A stretch of DNA of 31,678 nucleotides from an uncultured Chromatiaceae bacterium (GTDB lineage: Bacteria > Pseudomonadota > Gammaproteobacteria > DRLM01): contig CAYWIQ010000001.1 of the NCBI GenBank assembly GCA_964458405.1, positions 6,093-37,770 on the forward strand, written 5' to 3'. The notes beneath the pieces are model-generated. The model was not told the DNA's origin, made no database searches, and saw only the letters and a program-made list of their open reading frames with translations. A program made the translations under genes and the position numbers. Below, piece by piece: positions 58-9,321 of this stretch (position 1 is its first letter; every line of letters begins with the position of its first letter).

Positions 58-71
58 TTGTTTCGGAGTAA

Positions 72-87
72 TGGTGCAGTATTTGCA
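72..87 (+). promoter_or_regulatory. Candidate sigma54 -24/-12 promoter of rpoH
   Basis: TGGTGCAGTATTTGCA has GG-N10-GC spacing and a perfect TTTGCA -12; the -24 (TGGTGC vs TGGCAC) is imperfect. Confidence 0.45.
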
Positions 88-152
88 TATCCTTTAAGGA
101 TATCAATGGCTTGGTGATTAAGCGATTCTCACTGAAGAGGGACCATATCCTG

Positions 153-1010
153 ATGAGCGAAAGAAACAAGAGTTTAGAGCTGGCAATCCCCATGGGCAGT
201 CTCGAAGCCTACTGCCAGGGGGTGTCCCGTATCCCCATGTTAAGCGCGGAGGAGGAAAAGACCTTAGCTCGGCGCTTGAGAGATTTCAATGACTTAGATG
301 CTGCCCGGCGGTTGGTGATGTCCCATCTGCGCTTCGTGGTCCATGTCGCCCGTGGTTATGACGGCTATGGGTTGGCCCAATCCGACCTGATTCAGGAAGG
401 TAATATAGGCTTGATGAAGGCGGTGAAGCGCTTCGACCCGGAGATGAACGTGCGCCTGGTGTCCTTCGCGGTGCACTGGATTCGTGCAGAGATCCACGAA
501 TTTATCCTACGCAACTGGCGCATCGTCAAGGTGGCCACCACCAAGGCCCAACGTAAGCTGTTCTTCAATCTGCGCAGCGCCAAGCAGCGCCTGGGTTGGT
601 TCAGCCGTGACGAGGTGGCGGCGGTGGCCAAGGACCTGGGGGTCAAACCGGAGACCGTGGTGGAGATGGAGGCGCGCATGAGCGGTTATGACGCCTCGTT
701 GGAAGGCGATGCCGATCAGGACGACGAACACGCCTCTTACACGGCTCCTATCACCTACCTGGCCGATATGCGCGCCGATCCCGCGGCGGAGCTGGAATCC
801 GACGAGTGGGAGGCCCATAACAGCGATCGTCTCCATCAGGCCCTGGCCGATCTGGATGACCGCAGCCGTGATATCGTCGCGCGTCGTTGGTTGGCGGAAA
901 ACAAATCCACGCTCCATGAATTGGCCGATCAATATCATGTCTCTGCCGAGCGCATTCGCCAGTTGGAGAGCAACGCCATGAAAAAACTCAAGTCGGCGTT
1001 GGAGGCCTAA
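153..1010 (+). CDS. rpoH: RNA polymerase sigma-32 factor RpoH
   Basis: Sigma70-family regions ([41 protein letters not shown]), RpoH box [10 protein letters not shown]-terminal HTH ([10 protein letters not shown]). I chose ATG 153 (GAGGG upstream) over the ORF-track start at 111. Confidence 0.97.
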
Positions 1011-1690
1011 TCGCCCAAGGTTAGGTACTCAATATTTAGGCAGGCTGCCATACGCTCCGCGGCGAAGCTGGGGAGGTAGGGAATGGTACCCAAGCGCGGC
1101 GCCGGTAGGCGCGCCTCCAGCGCCGCGATGTTTTCTTGAATCTCCAGTGTATCCCCATCGATGATGTTGGCGATCCATCCCCCCACGGTGAGTTGTTGAC
1201 GCAAGACGGCGTCGCAGGTTAATAGACCGTGATTGAGGCAGCCGAGACGGATTCCTATCACGATAATCACCGGCAGGCCCAGCAGCCGTGCAACGTGCGC
1301 CATAGTTTCATGGTCGTTGATCGGTACCTCCCAGCCACCCACCCCTTCGATGAGTAGACAGTCCAGTTCTTCTTCAATGGTCGTACAGGACTCATGCATG
1401 GCCGCGGCGGACAGGCGCAGCCCGGCATGGCGGGCTGCGATATGCGGCGCGATGGGCTCCCGCAGCAGGAAGGGATTGACCGTTTCATAGGGCAGGTGGA
1501 CCGAGGCCTGCTGCATGAGCAGTTCCGCGTCTTCGTTACGCCAGCCGTCAGGGGTGTCATGGGCGCCGCACGCCAAGGGCTTCAGGCCGGCGACACGCAG
1601 GCCGCGGGCCGTCATGGCATGGAGCAGTGCGGCGGTCATCCAGGTCTTACCTACGCCGGTGTCCGTGCCGGTAATGAAGAATCCCTTCAT
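1007..1690 (-). CDS. bioD: Dethiobiotin synthase
   Basis: P-loop [30 protein letters not shown] motifs; last gene of the bio operon. Confidence 0.96.
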
Positions 1691-2592
1691 GAAGTTGCTC
1701 CAGGCGGACGGCGGTGCAGGGTCGTCAGCGGTATGTGGACCTCACCCGCTGGTGGGGTTTTGACGGAAGTTGCAGTGGGTGCCCAAGCCAGGCCATAGAC
1801 CACTTCGAAGGTGGCCGGCAATGTCCCTTGGTGGCGAAGGCGCTCATAGGCGGCGGTCATGGCGCGCAGCCGGCCCTTACCGGTCAGGCCGCGGTTGCGA
1901 CCGCTGACGGCATTGTGCGCCCCCAGCAATTTGAGTTCCTTCATGACCGCATTGGCGTCGCCATAGGTGAGGGTGAAGCGTTCCGCATCCATTACCGGAT
2001 CGGCAAAGCCGCAGCGCAACAAGGCATCGCCGATATCGTGCATGTCGATGAAGGTACTGACATGCACCGCTTGATCGGCCGCTGCCCAGCTGTCGCGCAA
2101 TTCCTTGAGGGTGTCGGGGCCGAAGGTGGAAAACAGCACCATACCGCCCGGTCTGATGATGCGGCGGAATTCGGAAAAGACCCGATCCAGGTCGCCGCAC
2201 CATTGCAAAGTTAGGTTGGAGAAAACCATGTCTGCCGAACGGTCGGTTAAAGGCAGGCTCTCGGCGTCGGCACAGACATGGGATTGGCGTCGTAACAGGC
2301 GTGCCAGGGTGCCTGCGTTACGTTTGGCGCTGAGGAGCATATTGAAGGCCAAATCCAAGGCGATTAGCCGCGCCTGTTTATAACGTTGTGTCAGGTTTTT
2401 GGTGAGATGGCCGGTGCCGGCGCCGATGTCGACGATGGTGCCGGGTTGCAGGCGGATATAGTCCAACCGTTCCAATAAGCGCTTCCCCACTTCACGCTGC
2501 AGTACGGCGACCCGGTCATAATCGGCCGCAGCGCGATCGAAGGATCGGCGCACCCGTTGTTTGTCGATTTGAAAGTCGTCGTTATCCGTCAT
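1687..2592 (-). CDS. bioC: Malonyl-ACP O-methyltransferase
   Basis: N-terminal IDKQRVRRSFDRAAADYD, SAM motif VDIGAGTG, FSNLTLQW, FSTFGPDTLKEL; ATGA overlap with bioD. Confidence 0.95.
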   Translation of the reverse strand: MTDNDDFQIDKQRVRRSFDRAAADYDRVAVLQREVGKRLLERLDYIRLQPGTIVDIGAGTGHLTKNLTQRYKQARLIALDLAFNMLLSAKRNAGTLARLLRRQSHVCADAESLPLTDRSADMVFSNLTLQWCGDLDRVFSEFRRIIRPGGMVLFSTFGPDTLKELRDSWAAADQAVHVSTFIDMHDIGDALLRCGFADPVMDAERFTLTYGDANAVMKELKLLGAHNAVSGRNRGLTGKGRLRAMTAAYERLRHQGTLPATFEVVYGLAWAPTATSVKTPPAGEVHIPLTTLHRRPPGATS

Positions 2593-3353
2593 GGTGTGTT
2601 ATTTAGGAAGTCAATGAGCAAGTCGGTGAACGCCTGCGGGTGGGATAGAAACGGTACGTGGCCCGCGCCCTTGATGATTTCAATCCGTGCCGTGGGCAGC
2701 AGTTGTTGCATAGCCTGAGCGACCGCGGCGGGGACCAGCCTGTCGCGCCCTCCCAGGATAGCCAGGGTGGGACAGGACAGTTCGGCAAAATGGCTGCGTA
2801 AGTCGGCGTTGCGTAATATCGCCAATCCTGCCTCCAGAGATTGTTCCTCAGGCGGTGAACCTAGTAGCAACTCGCGCAACCGCCGTAAGACCTCCCTGTC
2901 CGCCTTGGTTATCTGCAGGCTCAGGAAACGTTCCAGGGTGCCCTGGTAGTCATCGTGCAGTGCCTGGGCAAATCCGGCGAGAACCATGGGCGCCATGGCC
3001 CAAGGCCAATTTTCGTCGCTGACGAAGCGCGGCGAGCTGCCGACCAAGATCAGTTTTGCCACCCGCTGTGGTGCCGTGATCGCCACCTGCGTCGCGATCA
3101 TGCCGCCCAACGACCAGCCCAACCACACGGCATGGGCTGGCGTGCAGGCCGCCACCGTTTCGGCCATGGTCGGTAGATCGAGCTCGGTCCGCGCCGGTGG
3201 TGAACGGCCATGGCCGGGCAAGTCGATGAGTGATACGCGAAATTGTGACGCTAACTGCTCCGCCAGGGTTGTGAATACGCCACCATGCAAGCCCCAGCCA
3301 TGCAGCATCACGATATCGGAGCCCGATCCCATTTGTTGGATGTGTAGGGTCAT
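2589..3353 (-). CDS. bioH: Pimeloyl-ACP methyl ester carboxylesterase
   Basis: Alpha/beta hydrolase: [10 protein letters not shown], nucleophile [17 protein letters not shown]; lies between bioF and bioC. Confidence 0.94.
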
Positions 3354-4498
3354 GCCAGCGTTTCCAGTGCACCCAACAGCCGATCGACATGGGTGTCACT
3401 GTGGGCGGCGGACAGTGTGATGCGCAATCGTGCCGTACCCTTGGGGACGGTGGGGGGGCGGATGGCGCTGACGTAGATGCCGCGTTGCCGCAGTGCCGCG
3501 CTTAGGGCAAGGGCCTGTTGCGCATCGCCCACCAGCAGCGGCTGGATCGCGGTGGCCGACGGCATTACCCGCAGGCCCAATTGCTGCGCACCTTTGCGGA
3601 AGCGGGCGATCAGTGCATGAAGATGTTCGCGGCGCCAGGTTTCTTCCTCCATGACGTGAAGGCTGGCGAGGGTGGCGTGGGCTATGGCAGGCGGCAGGGC
3701 CGTGGTATAGACATAAGACCGTGCCCGCTGAATAAGGAACTCAATCAAATCTTCATCGCCGGCGACGAAGGCGCCGAAGGTGCCGAAGGCCTTGCCCAGG
3801 GTGCCGATCAGGACGGGTACGGCTCCACTGTCTAAGTCATAGTGTTCCAGGGTTCCACGCCCCTTGGCACCCAACACCCCGAGACCGTGGGCATCGTCCA
3901 CCATCAGCATGGCGTCATGCCGTAGGGCGATTTCCGCGAGCTGCGGCAGGGGGGCTAGATCGCCGTCCATGCTGAATACGCCGTCGCTGATAATCATGGC
4001 GGGCGGGGCGGCGTCTTTACCCAGATGCTGTTGCAAGGCGGCGGCGTCGCCATGGGGGTAGCGTCGCAGCCGCGCCCCCGACAGCAGCCCCGCGTCCAGC
4101 AGCGAGGCATGATTGAGGCGGTCTTCCCAGATCCGATCACCGCGTCTCGCCAGCGCCGCCACCGTCCCCAGGTTTGCCAGGTAGCCGCTGGAAAACAGCA
4201 AGGCCCGCGGCCGGCCGGTAAACGCCGCAAGGGATTCCTCCAACGCATGATGGGGGTGCTGGTGGCCGGTCACCAGGTGGGAGGCGCCGCTGCCTGCGCC
4301 GTATGTTTGCGCGCCTTCCATGAGCGCCGCGATTACCCGCGGGTGATTGGCCAGGCCGAGGTAATCATTGCTGCAAAAGGAAAGATAACGCGTGCCGTCT
4401 ACCTCAATCTCTGCGCCTTGCGGGCCGTCGACGACGGTGCGGCTGCGGTAAAGGTGTTGTGTGCGTAGCCGCGCCAGGTCAGCGGCCAGGTCTCTCAT
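3350..4498 (-). CDS. bioF: 8-amino-7-oxononanoate synthase
   Basis: [35 protein letters not shown] lysine motif [15 protein letters not shown]. Confidence 0.97.
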
Positions 4499-5529
4499 GT
4501 GACGGCGTTATCCACCAGCGCGGCACGGCGGCGTTGGGTGTCGCCGCGTGCTTTGACCTTGAGGTCGTCCAACATCGTCAGATCATCATCGACCTGGCGG
4601 CCCTTGGTAGTGAGATAGTCGCCGATCATCACGCCCGAGGCGCCGGCGAAAAAGATCATGGCCTGCAGGTCGCGCAGGAAGTGGCGGCCGCCGGCGATGC
4701 GGATTTCCGCCTTGGGCAGCATGTAGCGGAACACCGCGATCATGTGCAGGATCTCCAGCGGCTGCATAGGCGTCTGGTGTCCCATGGGGGTGCCGTCGAT
4801 GGGATTGAGGAAATTCAGCGGTACCGATTCCACACCCAGCCTGCGCAGGGTTTCCGCCAGTTCGATGCGCTGATCCAAGGATTCACCCATGCCCAGGATA
4901 CCGCCGGCGCATACCCGTAAGCCGGCATCCACGGCGTTGCGGATGGTGTCGATGTTTTCCTGATAGGTATGAGTGGTGCAGACATTATGGAAAAAACTCT
5001 CGGCGGTCTCGAGATTGTGATGATAGTTTTCCATGCCCATTTCCTTGAGCATCACCGCCGTTTGTTTGTCCAGTGCGCCCAGGCTGGCACAACGGCCGAT
5101 GTCGGAGTCTTGCTGCATGGCCGCGAAATAATTCCGTAATTGTGTGCGTTCTTTATCGCTGCGGACGCCCCAGCCCTTGGAGACCACGCCGAAGTCGCTG
5201 GCGCCCCATTGCCGGGCGCGGCGCGCCTGCGTCACCAGTTGTTCGGCAGGGATATAGTTGTATTTCGGTGCGCTGGTTTGATGGTGGCCACTTTGGCCGC
5301 AGAAAGAACAGTTTTCCGAACAGTTGCCGGAGCGCACGTTGGAGATGGCACAGACCTCCACCTCGTCGCCGCGAAAGGTCTTGCGCAGCCGGTCGGCACC
5401 GGCCATCAGCCAGGAAAGATAGTCATGATCGAGGCGGATCATCCACTGTCCTTCCTCGGCGGTCATTTCGCCGCCGGCGAGAATGCGCTGGGTGATGTCG
5501 TCGATGCGTTGGTATACGGTGTTATCCAT
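4495..5529 (-). CDS. bioB: Biotin synthase (radical SAM), atypical auxiliary-cluster ligand set
   Basis: CxxxCxxC (CSENCSFC), [42 protein letters not shown] 5529 (GGAAGG upstream) gives 344 aa; the stop overlaps the bioF start (ATGA). Confidence 0.95.
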
Positions 5530-5647
5530 GTGTGGGGCGACCTTCCGTTCGTGGCAAACAATGGGTTCATAGTCGTCGTCAGGCGGGCTATTATTGGGCG
5601 GGGCCCTCAACGGAATGATGGCTTATCATCCAGACGCCGGATCGTCT

Positions 5648-6415
5648 ATGTCTAAACCCACTGAATATAGTCGGTTTGATTCTTCTGTCAACCTTTCTGC
5701 GATTCAGAAGGTTAACAATCGCCGCAATACTTCTTGGCAATCCTGTCTATTCCCCACCGTGTGTGCGTTGTGCGAGGGCGGCGGCCAGCCGGGGCGGGAG
5801 TTATGCAGCGGATGTGAAAGGGATTTGCCGGTGGTGGCGGTTTCCTGTTGGCAATGCGGCGCACCGTTGTCCATGCCTGGGCTTTGCGGTCGCTGCCAAC
5901 AACATCCACCCGCGTTTACGCGCATCGTGGTGACCTATCATTATTTGCCACCGGTGGATTCGCTGCTCAAGCAGCTCAAGTTCGGCGGCAAGCTCCAGTT
6001 GGCCCGTTTATTAGGTGAATTGATGGCGGATCGCATTATGAGAGAGAACGCCGTGCTTCCGGAGGTGATTTTACCGGTACCGCTCCATGTCAGCCGCCTG
6101 CGTGAGCGGGGGTTTAATCAGGCGTTGGAGCTGGCGCGCCCCATCGCGACGCGATTGAAGGTGCCGTTGGATTGGCGTCACGTGATCCGTACGCGGGCCA
6201 CCGATGCCCAAAGCGATCTGCCCGCTGCGTTACGCGCCCGCAACGTCAAAGGCGCCTTCTCGGTCTTGAAGGGTTTCACGGTAGGCCGGGTTGCCGTGGT
6301 GGATGATGTCATGACAACAGGACACACGGTGAATGAATTGGCATTGACGCTACGGCGGGCGGGGGTGAGCGATATTTCTATATGGGTGTGCGCGCGGGCG
6401 GTATTCGGGCGATAA
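5648..6415 (+). CDS. comF: ComF/GntX family protein (double zinc ribbon + phosphoribosyltransferase domain), DNA-uptake competence
   Basis: CALC...LCSGC...CWQC...CGRC zinc ribbons, PVPLH...RERGFNQA, PRT motif VVDDVMTTGHT. The start is uncertain (5594, 5648 or a later non-ATG start). Confidence 0.9.
   Translation: MSKPTEYSRFDSSVNLSAIQKVNNRRNTSWQSCLFPTVCALCEGGGQPGRELCSGCERDLPVVAVSCWQCGAPLSMPGLCGRCQQHPPAFTRIVVTYHYLPPVDSLLKQLKFGGKLQLARLLGELMADRIMRENAVLPEVILPVPLHVSRLRERGFNQALELARPIATRLKVPLDWRHVIRTRATDAQSDLPAALRARNVKGAFSVLKGFTVGRVAVVDDVMTTGHTVNELALTLRRAGVSDISIWVCARAVFGR
5664..5691 (-). promoter_or_regulatory. Sigma70 promoter of the bioBFHCD operon
   Basis: On the minus strand: TTGACA-N16-TATATT, i.e. 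a perfect -35 and a 5/6 -10, about 135 nt upstream of the bioB start. Confidence 0.7.
5685..5718. promoter_or_regulatory. BirA (biotin repressor) operator
   Basis: cTGTCAACC-N16-GGTTAACAa matches the E. coli bioO architecture TTGTAAACC-N16-GGTTTACAA; one arm contains the -35 of the bio promoter. Confidence 0.85.
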
Positions 6416-7576: not shown

Positions 7577-8053
7577 GTGAATGCTGAACAAGGTGAACGC
7601 GTACGACAATTATTGACAAGGCAGCGTTGGGCGGCGCTGGCGACGCAGTGTCAGGACGGCAGTCCCTCGGTATCGCATGTCGCATATGTCGCGGAAACCG
7701 ATTTCAACGGCTTCTTGCTGCATGTCAGCAAGCTGGCCGCCCATACCCGTAATCTCTTGGCGCGTCCCGCGGTGAGCTTGGCAGTTAGCGAACCCGATAA
7801 CGGCGAGGATGATCCGCAATTGCTGGCGCGTCTTACCATTAACGGGACGGCCTCGGAAATCCCACGTCATTCGGAAGACTATCTCTCAGCACGGCAACGC
7901 TACTTGATGGGGTTGCCGTGGGCCGAGCGCCTGTTTGGTTTCGAGGATTTCGTGTTGGTGAGAGTGTTTCCGCAAACGGCCCGTTTTGTGGGTGGCTTCG
8001 CCCAAACCTTACAATTAACCGCCGAGCAGCTAAGACGTCTTGCTACGTTGTGA
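7577..8053 (+). CDS. Pyridoxamine 5'-phosphate oxidase-like split-barrel protein (HugZ/HutZ/CREG-like)
   Basis: ALAT...GSPSVSHVAY, LLHVSKLAAHTRNL...VSL, LARLTING, DFVLVR, RFVGGFA match the pattern of FMN/heme-binding split barrels. Confidence 0.8.
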   Translation: MNAEQGERVRQLLTRQRWAALATQCQDGSPSVSHVAYVAETDFNGFLLHVSKLAAHTRNLLARPAVSLAVSEPDNGEDDPQLLARLTINGTASEIPRHSEDYLSARQRYLMGLPWAERLFGFEDFVLVRVFPQTARFVGGFAQTLQLTAEQLRRLATL

Positions 8054-8352
8054 TTCGCTAGTCTCACTAACTTTACAATTCGGCATTTATCGAGATGTCG
8101 CTGCCCCGGGCTTTTGCCGGCAGGCTGATGATGAATGTTATAACGTTATCTTTAAGCGCGATCGGCGGTTTTGATATGCGCATTGCTTGTCGCCGACGAT
8201 TGCCGGCGTTTTTGTGCGGTTAAAATTTCTCTAAGGGTGTACCCGATTCCCATAATGTAAAGATACACCAATGAGAGTTGTGTGGCCGATTCTTAGGCTT
8301 TGGTATGAAGGGATTATTGACGCGGCGATGACAGGTGAGAGGTGATGTTGAA

Positions 8353-9321
8353 GTGCAACATGTGGTAGCGGCGGTAATAGTTAATGATGATCAACAGGTG
8401 TTGCTGGCGAAGCGGCCTCAGGATCGTCATCAAGGCGGACTATGGGAGTTCCCTGGCGGTAAGGTAGAGCGTGGCGAGGATGCGCGCGCGGCCCTGGTTC
8501 GAGAACTGTGGGAGGAGTTGGGCGTCGATACCGCTGATGCCCGCCCGCTGATAAAGATCCGTTATGAATACCCGGATAAAGCGGTGTTGCTGGATGTGTG
8601 GCGGGTGACCGCCTTAACCGGCGAGCCTCACGGCCGAGAGGGACAGCCGATTGAATGGGTGGCGGTGGACGACTTGCCCGGCCGTGATTTTCCAGCGGCC
8701 AACAAGCCCATAGTGACCGCCGCGCGGTTACCCGCCATGTGTCTGGTGACACCGGAGCCCGGCGACACAACACTATATCTCGACAGGCTTGCCGCATTAT
8801 TGGCGCAGGGCGTCAAATTGGTTCAGTTCCGAGCCAAGACTGTGAAGAGCGTATCAGCTTATGCGAACCTGGCGCGACAGGTTATTGCGCTTTGCGAAGA
8901 GGCGGGGGCGCGGTTGTTGTTGAATTCGCCGCCCGAGTTGGCTGACGTGGGGAGATGGGGTGCCGGTGGCGTTCATTTGACCAGTGCCGCTTTGATGAAA
9001 CTGGAGCAACGTCCCTTGCCCCGCGGTCAATGGGTGTCGGCCGCCTGTCATTCCAGCCGGGAGCTGGAGCATGCCCATCGAATAGGGGTCGATTTTGTGG
9101 TGGTTGCGCCGGTGCGGGCCACCGCCACCCATCCCGAGGTTCGTCCCCTTGGATGGCAAGCATTGCACCAATTGACGGAACGCGCGTCATTGCCGGTCTA
9201 TGCGTTGGGTGGCATGGCGTTGCAGGACCTCGAAACGGCATGGGCCCACGGCTGCCAAGGCATCGCTTCGATTTCTTCCCTGTGGAACGCCAAGGAGATT
9301 CCCCCTCAGCTGCTTCGCTGA
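8353..9321 (+). CDS. Nudix hydrolase (MutT-like 8-oxo-dGTPase) fused to a thiamine-phosphate-synthase-like TIM barrel
   Basis: Nudix box GGKVERGEDARAALVRELWEELGV, WEFP, FPAANKPI; C-terminal VQFRAK, GVHL, SAACHS, PVYALGG. GTG 8353 has GAGGTG 8 nt upstream (alternative start 8335). Confidence 0.9.
   Translation: MQHVVAAVIVNDDQQVLLAKRPQDRHQGGLWEFPGGKVERGEDARAALVRELWEELGVDTADARPLIKIRYEYPDKAVLLDVWRVTALTGEPHGREGQPIEWVAVDDLPGRDFPAANKPIVTAARLPAMCLVTPEPGDTTLYLDRLAALLAQGVKLVQFRAKTVKSVSAYANLARQVIALCEEAGARLLLNSPPELADVGRWGAGGVHLTSAALMKLEQRPLPRGQWVSAACHSSRELEHAHRIGVDFVVVAPVRATATHPEVRPLGWQALHQLTERASLPVYALGGMALQDLETAWAHGCQGIASISSLWNAKEIPPQLLR

What the first reader, a model, noticed from the sequence alone, without database searches (positions are those of the whole stretch)
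4495..5529. BioB with a Type II-like auxiliary-cluster ligand set (candidate 4Fe-5S biotin synthase)
Seen (numbering from ATG 5529): radical-SAM C70/C74/C77; C147, C207 and R277 align with E. coli C128, C188 and R260. The C97-equivalent position, 44 residues after the first SAM Cys, is Gly114 (DFGVVSKG vs E. coli RFCMGAAW; codon GGC at 5188-5190). An extra Cys60 sits ten residues before the SAM motif ([13 protein letters not shown] vs E. coli VSTLLSIKTGAC; codon TGT at 5350-5352). Known: canonical BioB sacrifices a [2Fe-2S] cluster held by C97/C128/C188/R260. From memory of the literature, Type II BioBs bind an auxiliary 4Fe-5S cluster, use this upstream Cys, and are reported mostly from obligate anaerobes. 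Inference: this organism makes biotin with Type II chemistry fed by the BioC-BioH pathway, which suggests a microaerophilic or anoxic niche, or an oxygen-tolerant Type II variant.
Basis: partly seen in the sequence, partly recalled or inferred. Interest (0 to 1): 0.8.

Follow-up and report, generated by a model that had tools for sequence, protein, structure and literature searches.

The report
Type II-like (Gly-type) biotin synthase
This gene is a real biotin synthase with the residue pattern of the recently described oxygen-sensitive "Type II" (4Fe-5S) enzymes of anaerobes, yet it sits in the ordinary biotin operon of uncultured, oxygen-respiring Gammaproteobacteria related to Candidatus Tenderia.

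Summary
Window 4495-5529 (-) encodes a 344-aa BioB with C70/C74/C77, C60, G114, C147, C207 and R277 at the stated codons.

It is closer to the two solved Type II enzymes than to E. coli BioB: V. parvula 8vdw 313 bits and 46% identity, B. obeum 8vcw 237 bits, E. coli 168 bits and 29%. It carries every Type II cluster and active-site residue. These are C60=boC52, C147=boC138, C207=boC198, S149=boS140, H170=boH161 and R277=boR268. The non-ligand position is Gly, not Ser.

Lachowicz et al. 2024 already list this as the uncharacterised motif class "Type G", so the ligand set is not new.

What is worth noting is the host. All 80 close relatives are uncultured Gammaproteobacteria, including Ca. Tenderia electrophaga. 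All keep these residues and the comF|bioBFHCD arrangement. The Tenderia orthologue is transcribed on aerobic biocathodes, and Tenderiales carry cbb3 oxidases. The clade also has invariant substitutions beside the auxiliary-cluster residues.

Verdict: a new member of a known kind, and a reasonable lead for a Type II-like BioB that works in oxygen-respiring cells. Cluster type and oxygen tolerance are untested.

The parts
4495..5529 (-). bioB: a 344-aa radical-SAM biotin synthase. Radical-SAM cluster C70/C74/C77. Predicted auxiliary-cluster ligands C60, C147, C207. G114 at the E. coli C97 / B. obeum S106 position. S149 and H170 (B. obeum S140 and H161). R277. C184 conserved, role unknown.
   Evidence: TIGR00433 bioB equivalog 371 bits (cut-off 225). 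Radical_SAM and BATS domains. PDB phmmer: 8vdw 1.7e-92, 8vcw 2.1e-69, 1r30 2.3e-48. Residue mapping. Foldseek: 8vdw TM 0.89/0.94.
3350..4498 (-). bioF, 8-amino-7-oxononanoate synthase. It overlaps the bioB stop by 4 nt.
   Evidence: TIGR00858 497 bits (cut-off 426). Downstream of bioB in 78 of 80 related loci.
2589..3353 (-). bioH, pimeloyl-ACP methyl ester esterase
   Evidence: TIGR01738 272 bits (cut-off 207).
1687..2592 (-). bioC, malonyl-ACP O-methyltransferase
   Evidence: TIGR02072 249 bits (cut-off 185).
1007..1690 (-). bioD, dethiobiotin synthase (makes the BioB substrate)
   Evidence: TIGR00347 159 bits (cut-off 83).
5664..5691 (-). Near-consensus sigma-70 promoter-like site, TTGACA-16-TATATT, about 135 nt upstream of the bioB ATG
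   Evidence: 11 of 12 matches. A consensus match only; function is inferred.
5686..5717 (.). Palindrome TGTTAACC-N16-GGTTGACA overlapping the -35 hexamer. It resembles a BirA (bioO) operator.
   Evidence: A relaxed pattern lies within 300 nt upstream of bioB in 39 of 78 related loci, against 4 hits elsewhere in 1.04 Mb. The BirA assignment rests on my knowledge of the E. coli bioO half-sites and was not tested.

Best explanation
This is the organism's working biotin synthase, the first gene of a bioB-bioF-bioH-bioC-bioD operon that is probably BirA-regulated.

It most likely works like the Type II enzymes of Blautia obeum and Veillonella parvula. The C70/C74/C77 [4Fe-4S] cluster cleaves SAM to make 5'-deoxyadenosyl radicals, which abstract H from C9 and then C6 of dethiobiotin. 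The sulfur comes from a second, cubane-type cluster held by only three cysteines, C60, C147 and C207, on neighbouring barrel strands. The fourth iron of that cluster carries an extra sulfide (4Fe-5S). H170, hydrogen-bonded to S149, helps position or deprotonate that sulfide. R277 stacks on the cluster and does not ligate it.

Gly114 sits where Type II enzymes have a non-coordinating Ser and Type I enzymes have the ligand Cys97. In published terms the enzyme therefore belongs to the 'Type G' motif class, and is functionally a Type II-like enzyme.

Shown here: gene identity, residue equivalences, their conservation, operon context, and closer kinship to Type II than to Type I. Inferred: cluster nuclearity, the fifth sulfide, and the roles of H170 and S149.
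For: Identity as BioB:
- TIGR00433 371 bits against a cut-off of 225.
- Radical_SAM and BATS domains.
- Co-operonic with BioF, BioH, BioC and BioD, all above their equivalog cut-offs.

Type II kinship:
- phmmer gives 313 and 237 bits to 8vdw and 8vcw, against 168 bits to 1r30.
- Identity is 45.8%, 38.6% and 29.2% respectively.
- The AlphaFold model (pLDDT 84.9) matches 8vdw at TM 0.89/0.94 and rmsd 2.1 A, then 8vcw, then 1r30.
- In that model C60, G114, C147/S149, H170, C207 and R277 each lie on successive beta-strands (E57-67, E112-117, E145-149, E168-174, E205-212, E275-279). This matches the published description of the ligands on barrel strands.

Diagnostic residues:
- All of B. obeum C52, C138, C198, S140, H161 and R268 are matched (roles from PMC10813225).
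- E. coli has S43, T130 and N151 at three of these positions.

Conservation: 81 of 81 sequences keep these residues, with synonymous codon turnover.

Tree: the clade is sister to a G-type sequence from a Proteobacteria MAG (P0121). The next neighbours are V. parvula BioB and an A-type sequence, inside the alternative-motif radiation.

Frequency of the pattern: the signature C-CCC-G-C-S-H-C-C-R is the second most common among the 150 nearest 50%-identity cluster representatives. There are 19 such sequences, about 10 of them outside this clade, interleaved with 44 of the Ser version.
Against: - No spectroscopy, metal analysis or activity data exist for any Gly-type BioB.
- The authors of the Type II paper state that, from AlphaFold models, it is unclear how the cluster is coordinated in the G, A and D classes.
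- The clade has invariant, clade-specific substitutions right beside the predicted cluster: D112, S117, K118, W120, R146, N168 and V65. The cluster environment therefore differs from the two solved structures.
- Relatives respire O2. All bacterial Type II enzymes tested, including five from aerobes or facultative organisms, complemented an E. coli bioB mutant only anaerobically.
- My tree is a simple neighbour-joining tree without support values, and it contains a single Type I sequence.
- Model coordinates are not returned by the tool, so Cys-Cys distances could not be measured.
Confidence: 0.72

Rival explanations
1. Oxygen-adapted derivative. The ligand set is the Type II one, but the clade's remodelled second sphere (D112, K118, W120, R146, N168) shields or retunes the auxiliary cluster. 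The enzyme would then work inside O2-respiring cells, unlike the Type II enzymes tested so far. This refines the best explanation and does not exclude it.
For: - At least 80 species-level genomes of one gammaproteobacterial clade carry it in a conserved housekeeping locus. That points to long vertical inheritance, not recent transfer.
- The Ca. Tenderia electrophaga orthologue (77% identical) is transcribed on aerobic biocathodes at logCPM 9.38. That is above bioF at 8.34 and similar to acetyl-CoA carboxylase at 8.81.
- Tenderiales conserve cbb3 oxidases and reduce O2.
- Seven invariant clade-specific substitutions flank the ligand positions.
Against: - cbb3 oxidases point to microaerophily, and cells in thick biocathode biofilms may see very little O2, so an ordinary O2-sensitive Type II enzyme might suffice.
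- A second, Type I bioB elsewhere in these genomes was not excluded, because I could not scan whole genomes.
- Transcript presence is not activity.
- The structural effect of the substitutions is unknown.
- The sister sequence P0121 shares only W120 and R146.
Confidence: 0.3
2. A Type I-style sacrificial [2Fe-2S] enzyme in which the ligand Cys has moved. C60, C147, C207 and R277 would hold a [2Fe-2S] cluster, with C60 replacing C97.
For: - Three Cys plus an invariant Arg are available, and R277 is 81 of 81 in the clade. Arg at this position is less conserved in Type II and in the G, A and D classes.
- Cys at the E. coli S43 position also occurs in eukaryotic Type I BioBs.
- The host lifestyle fits the more O2-robust Type I chemistry.
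Against: - Overall similarity is clearly to Type II.
- The Type I-specific Asn151 is His here and Thr130 is Ser, as in Type II.
- The B. obeum C52S/S106C swap variant kept a 4Fe-4S-like spectrum, so which position carries the Cys does not alone set the cluster type.
Confidence: 0.1
3. Not a biotin synthase but another BioB-like radical-SAM enzyme (HydE, PylB, LipS or ThiH-like), or an inactive relic.
For: BioB-like families are often misannotated. The Ca. Tenderia orthologue is annotated only as 'hypothetical protein'.
Against: - The BioB equivalog score is far above its cut-off, while PylB, HmdB, LipS and LipA all score far below theirs.
- HydE structures match only at about 1e-12.
- The gene is translationally coupled to bioF in a complete bioBFHCD operon.
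- The ORF is intact and under purifying selection in 81 genomes.
Confidence: 0.02

Closest known systems
Type II BioB: Veillonella parvula (PDB 8vdw) and Blautia obeum (PDB 8vcw), Lachowicz et al., JACS 2024 (PMC10813225)
   Same: - Same fold (TM 0.85-0.94).
- 46% and 39% identity.
- Same radical-SAM motif.
- Same three auxiliary-cluster cysteines (C60, C147, C207 = B. obeum C52, C138, C198).
- Same His/Ser pair (H170 and S149 = H161 and S140).
- Same stacking Arg, and the same extra conserved Cys (C184 = C175).
   Different: - Gly instead of Ser at the position that replaces E. coli C97.
- Clade-specific changes next to the cluster: D112 for Arg, K118 for Ser/Ala, W120 for Arg/Lys, R146 for Leu/Ile, N168 for Arg/Ser.
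- The hosts are O2-respiring Gammaproteobacteria, not obligate anaerobes.
- The gene is embedded in a Pseudomonas-style bioBFHCD operon.
'Type G' BioB motif class (Gly at the C97 position), catalogued but uncharacterised in the same paper
   Same: The window protein matches the published PRATT motif in its Gly version (C70...D112-F-G114-V-V-S-K118) and has the Cys at the E. coli S43 position that the paper says also predicts the G, A and D classes.
   Different: - The paper gives no biochemistry or structure for the class, and says Proteobacteria in its data set were Type I only.
- This protein also matches the Ser version of the loose motif in a shifted register (S117), so it could have been discarded there as a double-motif sequence.
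- Many other G-type representatives lack C147 or H170 (signatures such as C-CCC-G-H-S-N). 'Type G' is therefore heterogeneous, and this clade belongs to its Type II-like part.
Type I BioB (E. coli BioB, PDB 1r30; sacrificial [2Fe-2S])
   Same: Same reaction, fold (TM 0.81/0.89) and radical-SAM motif. C128, C188 and R260 equivalents are present. The pathway partners are the same (BioC/BioH/BioF/BioD), and the bioBFHCD operon form is the one described for Pseudomonas aeruginosa (PMC9894557).
   Different: Only 29% identity. No Cys at the C97 position. Cys instead of Ser43, His instead of Asn151, Ser instead of Thr130.
Other enzymes with a [4Fe-4S] cluster carrying a fifth, transferable sulfide (LarE, TudS, TtuA; proposed for LipS1/LipS2)
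   Same: Same proposed principle: a three-Cys cubane with a free iron site that binds sulfide for transfer.
   Different: Unrelated folds and substrates. Apart from LipS1 and LipS2, these enzymes do not use radical-SAM chemistry. This is a mechanistic analogy only, not family membership.

Membership tests
Biotin synthase BioB (TIGR00433 / EC 2.8.1.6) | Whole-protein score above the curated equivalog cut-off | tested here: met
   371 bits against a cut-off of 225.
Biotin synthase BioB (TIGR00433 / EC 2.8.1.6) | Radical-SAM CxxxCxxC motif plus a C-terminal BATS domain | tested here: met
   C70-x3-C74-x2-C77. PF04055 and PF06968.
Biotin synthase BioB (TIGR00433 / EC 2.8.1.6) | Genomic association with dethiobiotin-forming genes | tested here: met
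   bioB-bioF-bioH-bioC-bioD, each above its equivalog cut-off. Conserved in related loci.
Biotin synthase BioB (TIGR00433 / EC 2.8.1.6) | Converts dethiobiotin to biotin | not testable with these tools
   Needs complementation of a bioB mutant or an in vitro assay.
Type II BioB (Lachowicz et al. 2024) | Cys at the E. coli S43 position (B. obeum C52), the third cluster ligand | tested here: met
   C60 aligns with B. obeum C52, V. parvula C91 and E. coli S43. 81 of 81 in the clade.
Type II BioB (Lachowicz et al. 2024) | Ser at the E. coli C97 position (the motif used to define the type) | tested here: not met
   Gly114, invariant in the clade. This places it in the paper's 'Type G'. The Ser is not a cluster ligand in the structures.
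Type II BioB (Lachowicz et al. 2024) | The two remaining ligand cysteines (B. obeum C138 and C198) | tested here: met
   C147 and C207.
Type II BioB (Lachowicz et al. 2024) | Active-site His (B. obeum H161, Asn in Type I) and Ser (S140, mostly Thr in Type I) | tested here: met
   H170 and S149. E. coli has N151 and T130.
Type II BioB (Lachowicz et al. 2024) | Sequence and fold closer to Type II than to Type I enzymes | tested here: met
   Bits 313 and 237 against 168. Foldseek rank 8vdw, then 8vcw, then 1r30. Neighbour-joining tree placement, with no support values.
Type II BioB (Lachowicz et al. 2024) | Auxiliary 4Fe-5S cluster instead of 2Fe-2S | not testable with these tools
   Needs anaerobic purification, Fe and S analysis, spectroscopy or a crystal structure.
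Type II BioB (Lachowicz et al. 2024) | Extreme oxygen sensitivity; hosts are obligate anaerobes or recent recipients by gene transfer | tested here: inconclusive
   Enzyme sensitivity is untestable here. The host criterion looks unmet. All 80 relatives are Gammaproteobacteria MAGs. Ca. Tenderia reduces O2. The locus is vertically conserved.
'Type G' motif class (same paper) | PRATT motif C-x3-C-x2-C-x(30,40)-[HSRGEAKTVD]-[VILMFYWHKTA]-G-[VILMFYWHKTA]-[VAGSTDNRKH]-[VILMFYWHKTAS]-[ASGQKI] | tested here: met
   Matches residues 70-118 in the window and in all 80 relatives. The Ser version also matches in a shifted register (S117) in 60 of the 81.
Type I BioB (E. coli type) | Cys at position 97 as a ligand of the [2Fe-2S] cluster | tested here: not met
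   Gly114. The Cys version of the motif matches none of the 81 sequences, but does match E. coli.
Type I BioB (E. coli type) | Asn at position 151 (99% conserved in Type I) | tested here: not met
   His170. Conservation figure.

The most novel reading that the evidence does not exclude
A whole clade of O2-respiring, chemolithoautotrophic Gammaproteobacteria (Tenderiales and neighbours) uses a 4Fe-5S, non-sacrificial biotin synthase as its only BioB. Its clade-specific shell around the auxiliary cluster (D112, K118, W120, R146, N168) would make it work in the presence of oxygen. That would be a natural oxygen-tolerant Type II-like BioB, which the discoverers of Type II looked for in five aerobic or facultative hosts and did not find.
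Probability: 0.25. Interest if true: 0.75.

Novelty: new member of a known kind. Interest (0 to 1): 0.45.

Why it matters
Type I BioB is generally thought to destroy its own [2Fe-2S] cluster at each turnover. Type II enzymes are proposed to be catalytic, but they were found to be so oxygen-sensitive that they work in E. coli only anaerobically. That limits both their use in biotin production and the idea that they could serve aerobic life.

The published view is that Type II belongs to obligate anaerobes, that its occurrences in aerobes are recent transfers, and that Proteobacteria in the data set were Type I only. This window, with 80 related genomes, shows an old, vertically inherited Type II-like enzyme in the standard biotin operon of bacteria that reduce O2 for a living.

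If the enzyme proves oxygen-tolerant, it would show which second-sphere changes protect a 4Fe-5S cluster, and it would give a catalytic BioB usable in aerobic hosts. If it is as sensitive as the others, it tells us how low the intracellular O2 of these microaerophiles must be. Either way the ligand pattern itself is already in the literature, which limits the surprise.

Tried and rejected
- Exact look-up of the window BioB in the assembly collection found nothing, so the source sample and organism stay unknown.
- Supplements of the Type II paper (the Table S2 and Figure S5 details on Type G) and of the Tenderiales preprint are not held.
- The Ca. Tenderia transcriptome table is cut when stored. 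The absence of another 'biotin synthase' line therefore says nothing about a second bioB.
- The model's coordinates are not returned.
- Two pattern searches failed on syntax and were redone in Python.
- Recent horizontal transfer finds no support in base composition. GC over bioB (0.58-0.60) lies within the range of the surrounding region, and the locus is syntenic across the clade.
- I rejected the upstream TTG (5610) as the start codon. Relatives align from residue 1 of the ATG-5529 product, and a GGAAGG ribosome-binding site precedes it.
- The label 'Kaarinaea lacus' on some relatives looked like a cultured host. It is a cyanobacterium, so those contigs are probably from a co-cultured gammaproteobacterium.
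Full report
**1. What is in the sequence**

Window 4495-5529 on the minus strand is an intact 344-codon ORF.

The protein is a biotin synthase by curated criteria. It scores 371 bits on TIGR00433 against a cut-off of 225, and it has Radical_SAM plus BATS domains.

It is the first gene of a tightly packed operon with 4-nt overlaps, in the order bioB, bioF, bioH, bioC, bioD. Each product scores above its NCBIfam equivalog cut-off: BioF 497 against 426, BioH 272 against 207, BioC 249 against 185, BioD 159 against 83. bioA is not in the window.

About 135 nt upstream of the ATG lies a near-consensus promoter, TTGACA-16-TATATT. Its -35 hexamer overlaps a palindrome, TGTTAACC-N16-GGTTGACA. A relaxed version of that palindrome lies upstream of bioB in 39 of 78 related loci, with only 4 hits elsewhere in 1.04 Mb. 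I read it as a BirA-type operator, by analogy with E. coli bioO. That reading comes from my own knowledge and was not tested.

The rest of the window is ordinary gammaproteobacterial housekeeping. It holds an rpoH-like sigma factor, comF/gntX, yfaZ, a mutT-thiE fusion, zapD, coaE, a type IV pilus cluster (pilC/pilB/pilA-like genes with a PilS/PilR-like two-component pair), ispB, obg, proB, murJ, ribF, ileS, lspA and ispH. GC over bioB is unremarkable.

**2. Which kind of BioB**

Against all PDB sequences the best matches are the two Type II structures. V. parvula 8vdw gives 1.7e-92 (313 bits) and B. obeum 8vcw gives 2.1e-69 (237 bits). E. coli 1r30 gives 2.3e-48 (168 bits). Identities over aligned columns are 45.8%, 38.6% and 29.2%.

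An AlphaFold2 model (mean pLDDT 84.9, pTM 0.87) finds the same order by Foldseek:

| Structure | TM-score | rmsd |
|---|---|---|
| 8vdw | 0.89/0.94 | 2.1 A |
| 8vcw | 0.85/0.89 | not noted |
| 1r30 | 0.81/0.89 | not noted |

The paper that defined Type II is Lachowicz et al., JACS 2024 (PMC10813225). It states that the 4Fe-5S cluster of B. obeum BioB is held by C52, C138 and C198, with R268 stacking on it. S106 replaces E. coli C97 and C52 replaces E. coli S43. H161 (Asn in 99% of Type I) is important for catalysis, with S140 as its partner.

My alignment reproduces that numbering and maps every one of these residues onto the window protein:

| Window | B. obeum | E. coli |
|---|---|---|
| C60 | C52 | S43 |
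| G114 | S106 | C97 |
| C147 | C138 | C128 |
| S149 | S140 | T130 |
| H170 | H161 | N151 |
| C207 | C198 | C188 |
| R277 | R268 | R260 |

In the model each of these residues sits on a successive beta-strand of the barrel. This fits the published description of the ligands.

The only departure from the Type II definition is Gly instead of the non-ligand Ser.

**3. That departure is already catalogued**

The same paper sorted 23,268 UniProt BioBs by the residue at this position into Type I (Cys), Type II (Ser), Type G (Gly), Type D and Type A. It notes that the G, A and D classes also tend to have the Cys at position 43. It says their cluster coordination is unclear from AlphaFold models and that structures 'are of further interest'.

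The window protein matches the published PRATT motif in the Gly version at residues 70-118. It also matches the Ser version in a shifted register (S117). It could therefore have been set aside in that study as a double-motif sequence.

Among the 150 nearest 50%-identity cluster representatives in 1.84 billion proteins, the full signature with Ser occurs 44 times. The same signature with Gly occurs 19 times, 9 of them sequences I added from this clade. The two are interleaved in a neighbour-joining tree. Other G-type sequences lack C147 or H170, so 'Type G' is a mixed bag. This protein belongs to the part that is Type II in everything but the Ser.

**4. Where it occurs**

A scan of one genome per GTDB species found 101 relatives. 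The best 80 (69-93% identity) are all metagenome-assembled Gammaproteobacteria. Their labels include Candidatus Tenderia sp., Chromatiaceae, Chromatiales, Ectothiorhodospiraceae, Thiotrichales or no lower rank. They come from groundwater, biocathodes, hydrothermal deposits and sediments.

All 81 sequences keep C60, G114, C147, S149, H170, C184, C207 and R277, with synonymous codon variation at each position. The order comF | bioB-bioF-bioH-bioC-bioD is kept wherever the contig is long enough.

Outside this clade nothing exceeds 47% identity. The nearest outsider is P0121, from 'Proteobacteria bacterium CG1_02_64_396'. It is also G-type and sits in a different bioB-orf-bioF context.

The clade includes Candidatus Tenderia electrophaga itself. 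Tel_00655 (ALP51768.1), annotated 'hypothetical protein', is 77% identical to the window protein. It lies in the same pilBCD, coaE, zapD, mutT/thiE, yfaZ, comF | bioBFHCD neighbourhood as the window. The window organism is thus a relative of Tenderia, though I cannot name it.

**5. Lifestyle of the hosts**

Ca. T. electrophaga is the dominant electroautotroph of an aerobic, O2-reducing biocathode (PMC5371394). In that study's Table S3, Tel_00655 has logCPM 9.38. That is higher than the adjacent bioF (8.34) and similar to acetyl-CoA carboxylase biotin carboxylase (8.81).

The Tenderiales preprint reports conserved cbb3-type oxidases, 'typically associated with microaerophilic respiration' (10.1101/2022.05.06.490989).

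By contrast, the Type II paper reports three things:
- Standard Type II is exclusive to obligate anaerobes.
- The exceptions look like recent transfers, and Proteobacteria in its data set were Type I only.
- All bacterial Type II enzymes tested, including five from aerobic or facultative hosts, complemented E. coli only anaerobically.

A clade-wide, syntenic, transcribed Type II-like bioB in O2 respirers is therefore the part of this finding that goes beyond the literature I could search. No later paper on Type II or Type G BioB in aerobes turned up.

**6. A further difference, seen here**

I compared the clade with 90 Type II-like representatives. Several residues invariant in the clade are rare or absent elsewhere, and they cluster next to the ligand positions:
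- D112 (Arg in 60 of 90, and in E. coli)
- S117 (Thr in 73 of 90)
- K118 (Ser in 79 of 90)
- W120 (Arg or Lys)
- R146, directly before C147 (Leu, Ile or Val)
- N168, two residues before H170 (Arg in 67 of 90)
- V65 (Ala in 69 of 90)

The sister sequence P0121 shares only W120 and R146. In the pairwise alignments W120 pairs with E. coli W102, but not in the large alignment.

I cannot say what these changes do. They look like a coordinated re-charging of the shell around the auxiliary cluster, and they are the obvious candidates if the enzyme tolerates more oxygen.

**7. Mechanism proposed, and its rivals**

- **Best explanation (0.72).** A Type II-like enzyme with a three-Cys cubane auxiliary cluster (C60, C147, C207) bearing a transferable sulfide, with H170 and S149 assisting. 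Gene identity, residue equivalence, conservation and kinship are shown. Cluster type and residue roles are inferred.
- **Refinement (0.3, not exclusive).** The clade's second-sphere changes adapt it to O2-respiring cells.
- **Rival (0.1).** A [2Fe-2S] cluster on C60, C147, C207 and R277. This is disfavoured by His170, Ser149 and overall similarity. The B. obeum C52S/S106C swap variant also kept a 4Fe-4S-like spectrum.
- **Rival (0.02).** Not BioB at all. This is contradicted by the scores and the operon.

**8. Verdict**

The ligand pattern is a known, named but uncharacterised motif class, so this is a new member of a known kind and not a new kind. What remains interesting has three parts: the host clade, the evidence of expression under aerobic cultivation in a close relative, and the remodelled cluster surroundings. 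Together they make a concrete, cheap experiment worthwhile, namely complementation with and without O2.

The main gaps:
- There is no biochemistry.
- Whole genomes were not scanned for a second, Type I bioB.
- The tree has no support values and only one Type I sequence.
- The model gave no atomic distances.

Noticed in passing
window 5664-5717: A near-consensus promoter (TTGACA-16-TATATT) has its -35 hexamer overlapping the palindrome TGTTAACC-N16-GGTTGACA, which looks like a BirA operator. A relaxed form lies upstream of bioB in 39 of 78 related loci, with 4 hits elsewhere in 1.04 Mb.
   Followed up: partly
window 5594-6415 (+): The long TTG-started comF/gntX ORF runs over the bioB promoter and operator. 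The family match starts only at residue 55, and homologues in relatives are called at 130-250 aa. The true comF start is therefore probably near 5700-5760.
   Followed up: partly
window 4978-4980 (Cys184, NVCTTH): A seventh cysteine is invariant in all 81 clade members and present in both Type II crystal-structure sequences (B. obeum C175), but is Ile165 in E. coli. In the parts of the Type II paper I read it is not named as a ligand. Its role is unknown.
   Followed up: partly
window residues D112, S117, K118, W120, R146, N168, V65 of BioB (about 5025-5337): These substitutions are invariant in the clade, lie beside the auxiliary-cluster ligands, and are rare or absent in 90 other Type II-like representatives. 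This suggests a remodelled second coordination sphere.
   Followed up: partly
P0354 / L086:10001-11038 (Ca. Tenderia electrophaga Tel_00655, ALP51768.1): The orthologue in the closed Ca. Tenderia electrophaga genome is annotated 'hypothetical protein', although it is a clear BioB next to bioF. It is well transcribed on aerobic biocathodes (logCPM 9.38).
   Followed up: yes
P0070, P0084, P0318, P0326: Several BioBs of this gammaproteobacterial clade are labelled 'Kaarinaea lacus' at NCBI. That is a Nostocales cyanobacterium, so these contigs (up to 175 kb) are probably from a co-cultured gammaproteobacterium in a non-axenic culture assembly.
   Followed up: partly
L082:9056-9445: In the nearest outgroup ('Proteobacteria bacterium CG1_02_64_396'), a 129-aa ORF with no Pfam hit sits between the G-type bioB and bioF. 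The sulfide donor of Type II BioB is unknown, so this could be worth a look.
   Followed up: no
window 8335-9321 (+): A fused NUDIX (MutT-like) and thiamine-phosphate synthase-like (TMP-TENI) protein, conserved at the same place in relatives including Ca. Tenderia.
   Followed up: no
window 7577-8053 (+): A PNPOx/CREG-fold protein with a weak HutZ-like match (59 bits, far below the cut-off of 225), conserved between yfaZ and the mutT-thiE fusion in relatives. Function unclear.
   Followed up: no
window 70-118 of BioB; all 81 clade sequences: The published PRATT motif is loose enough that 60 of the 81 clade sequences match both the Gly version (at G114) and the Ser version (at S117, a shifted register). 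Motif-only typing of this clade is therefore ambiguous.
   Followed up: yes
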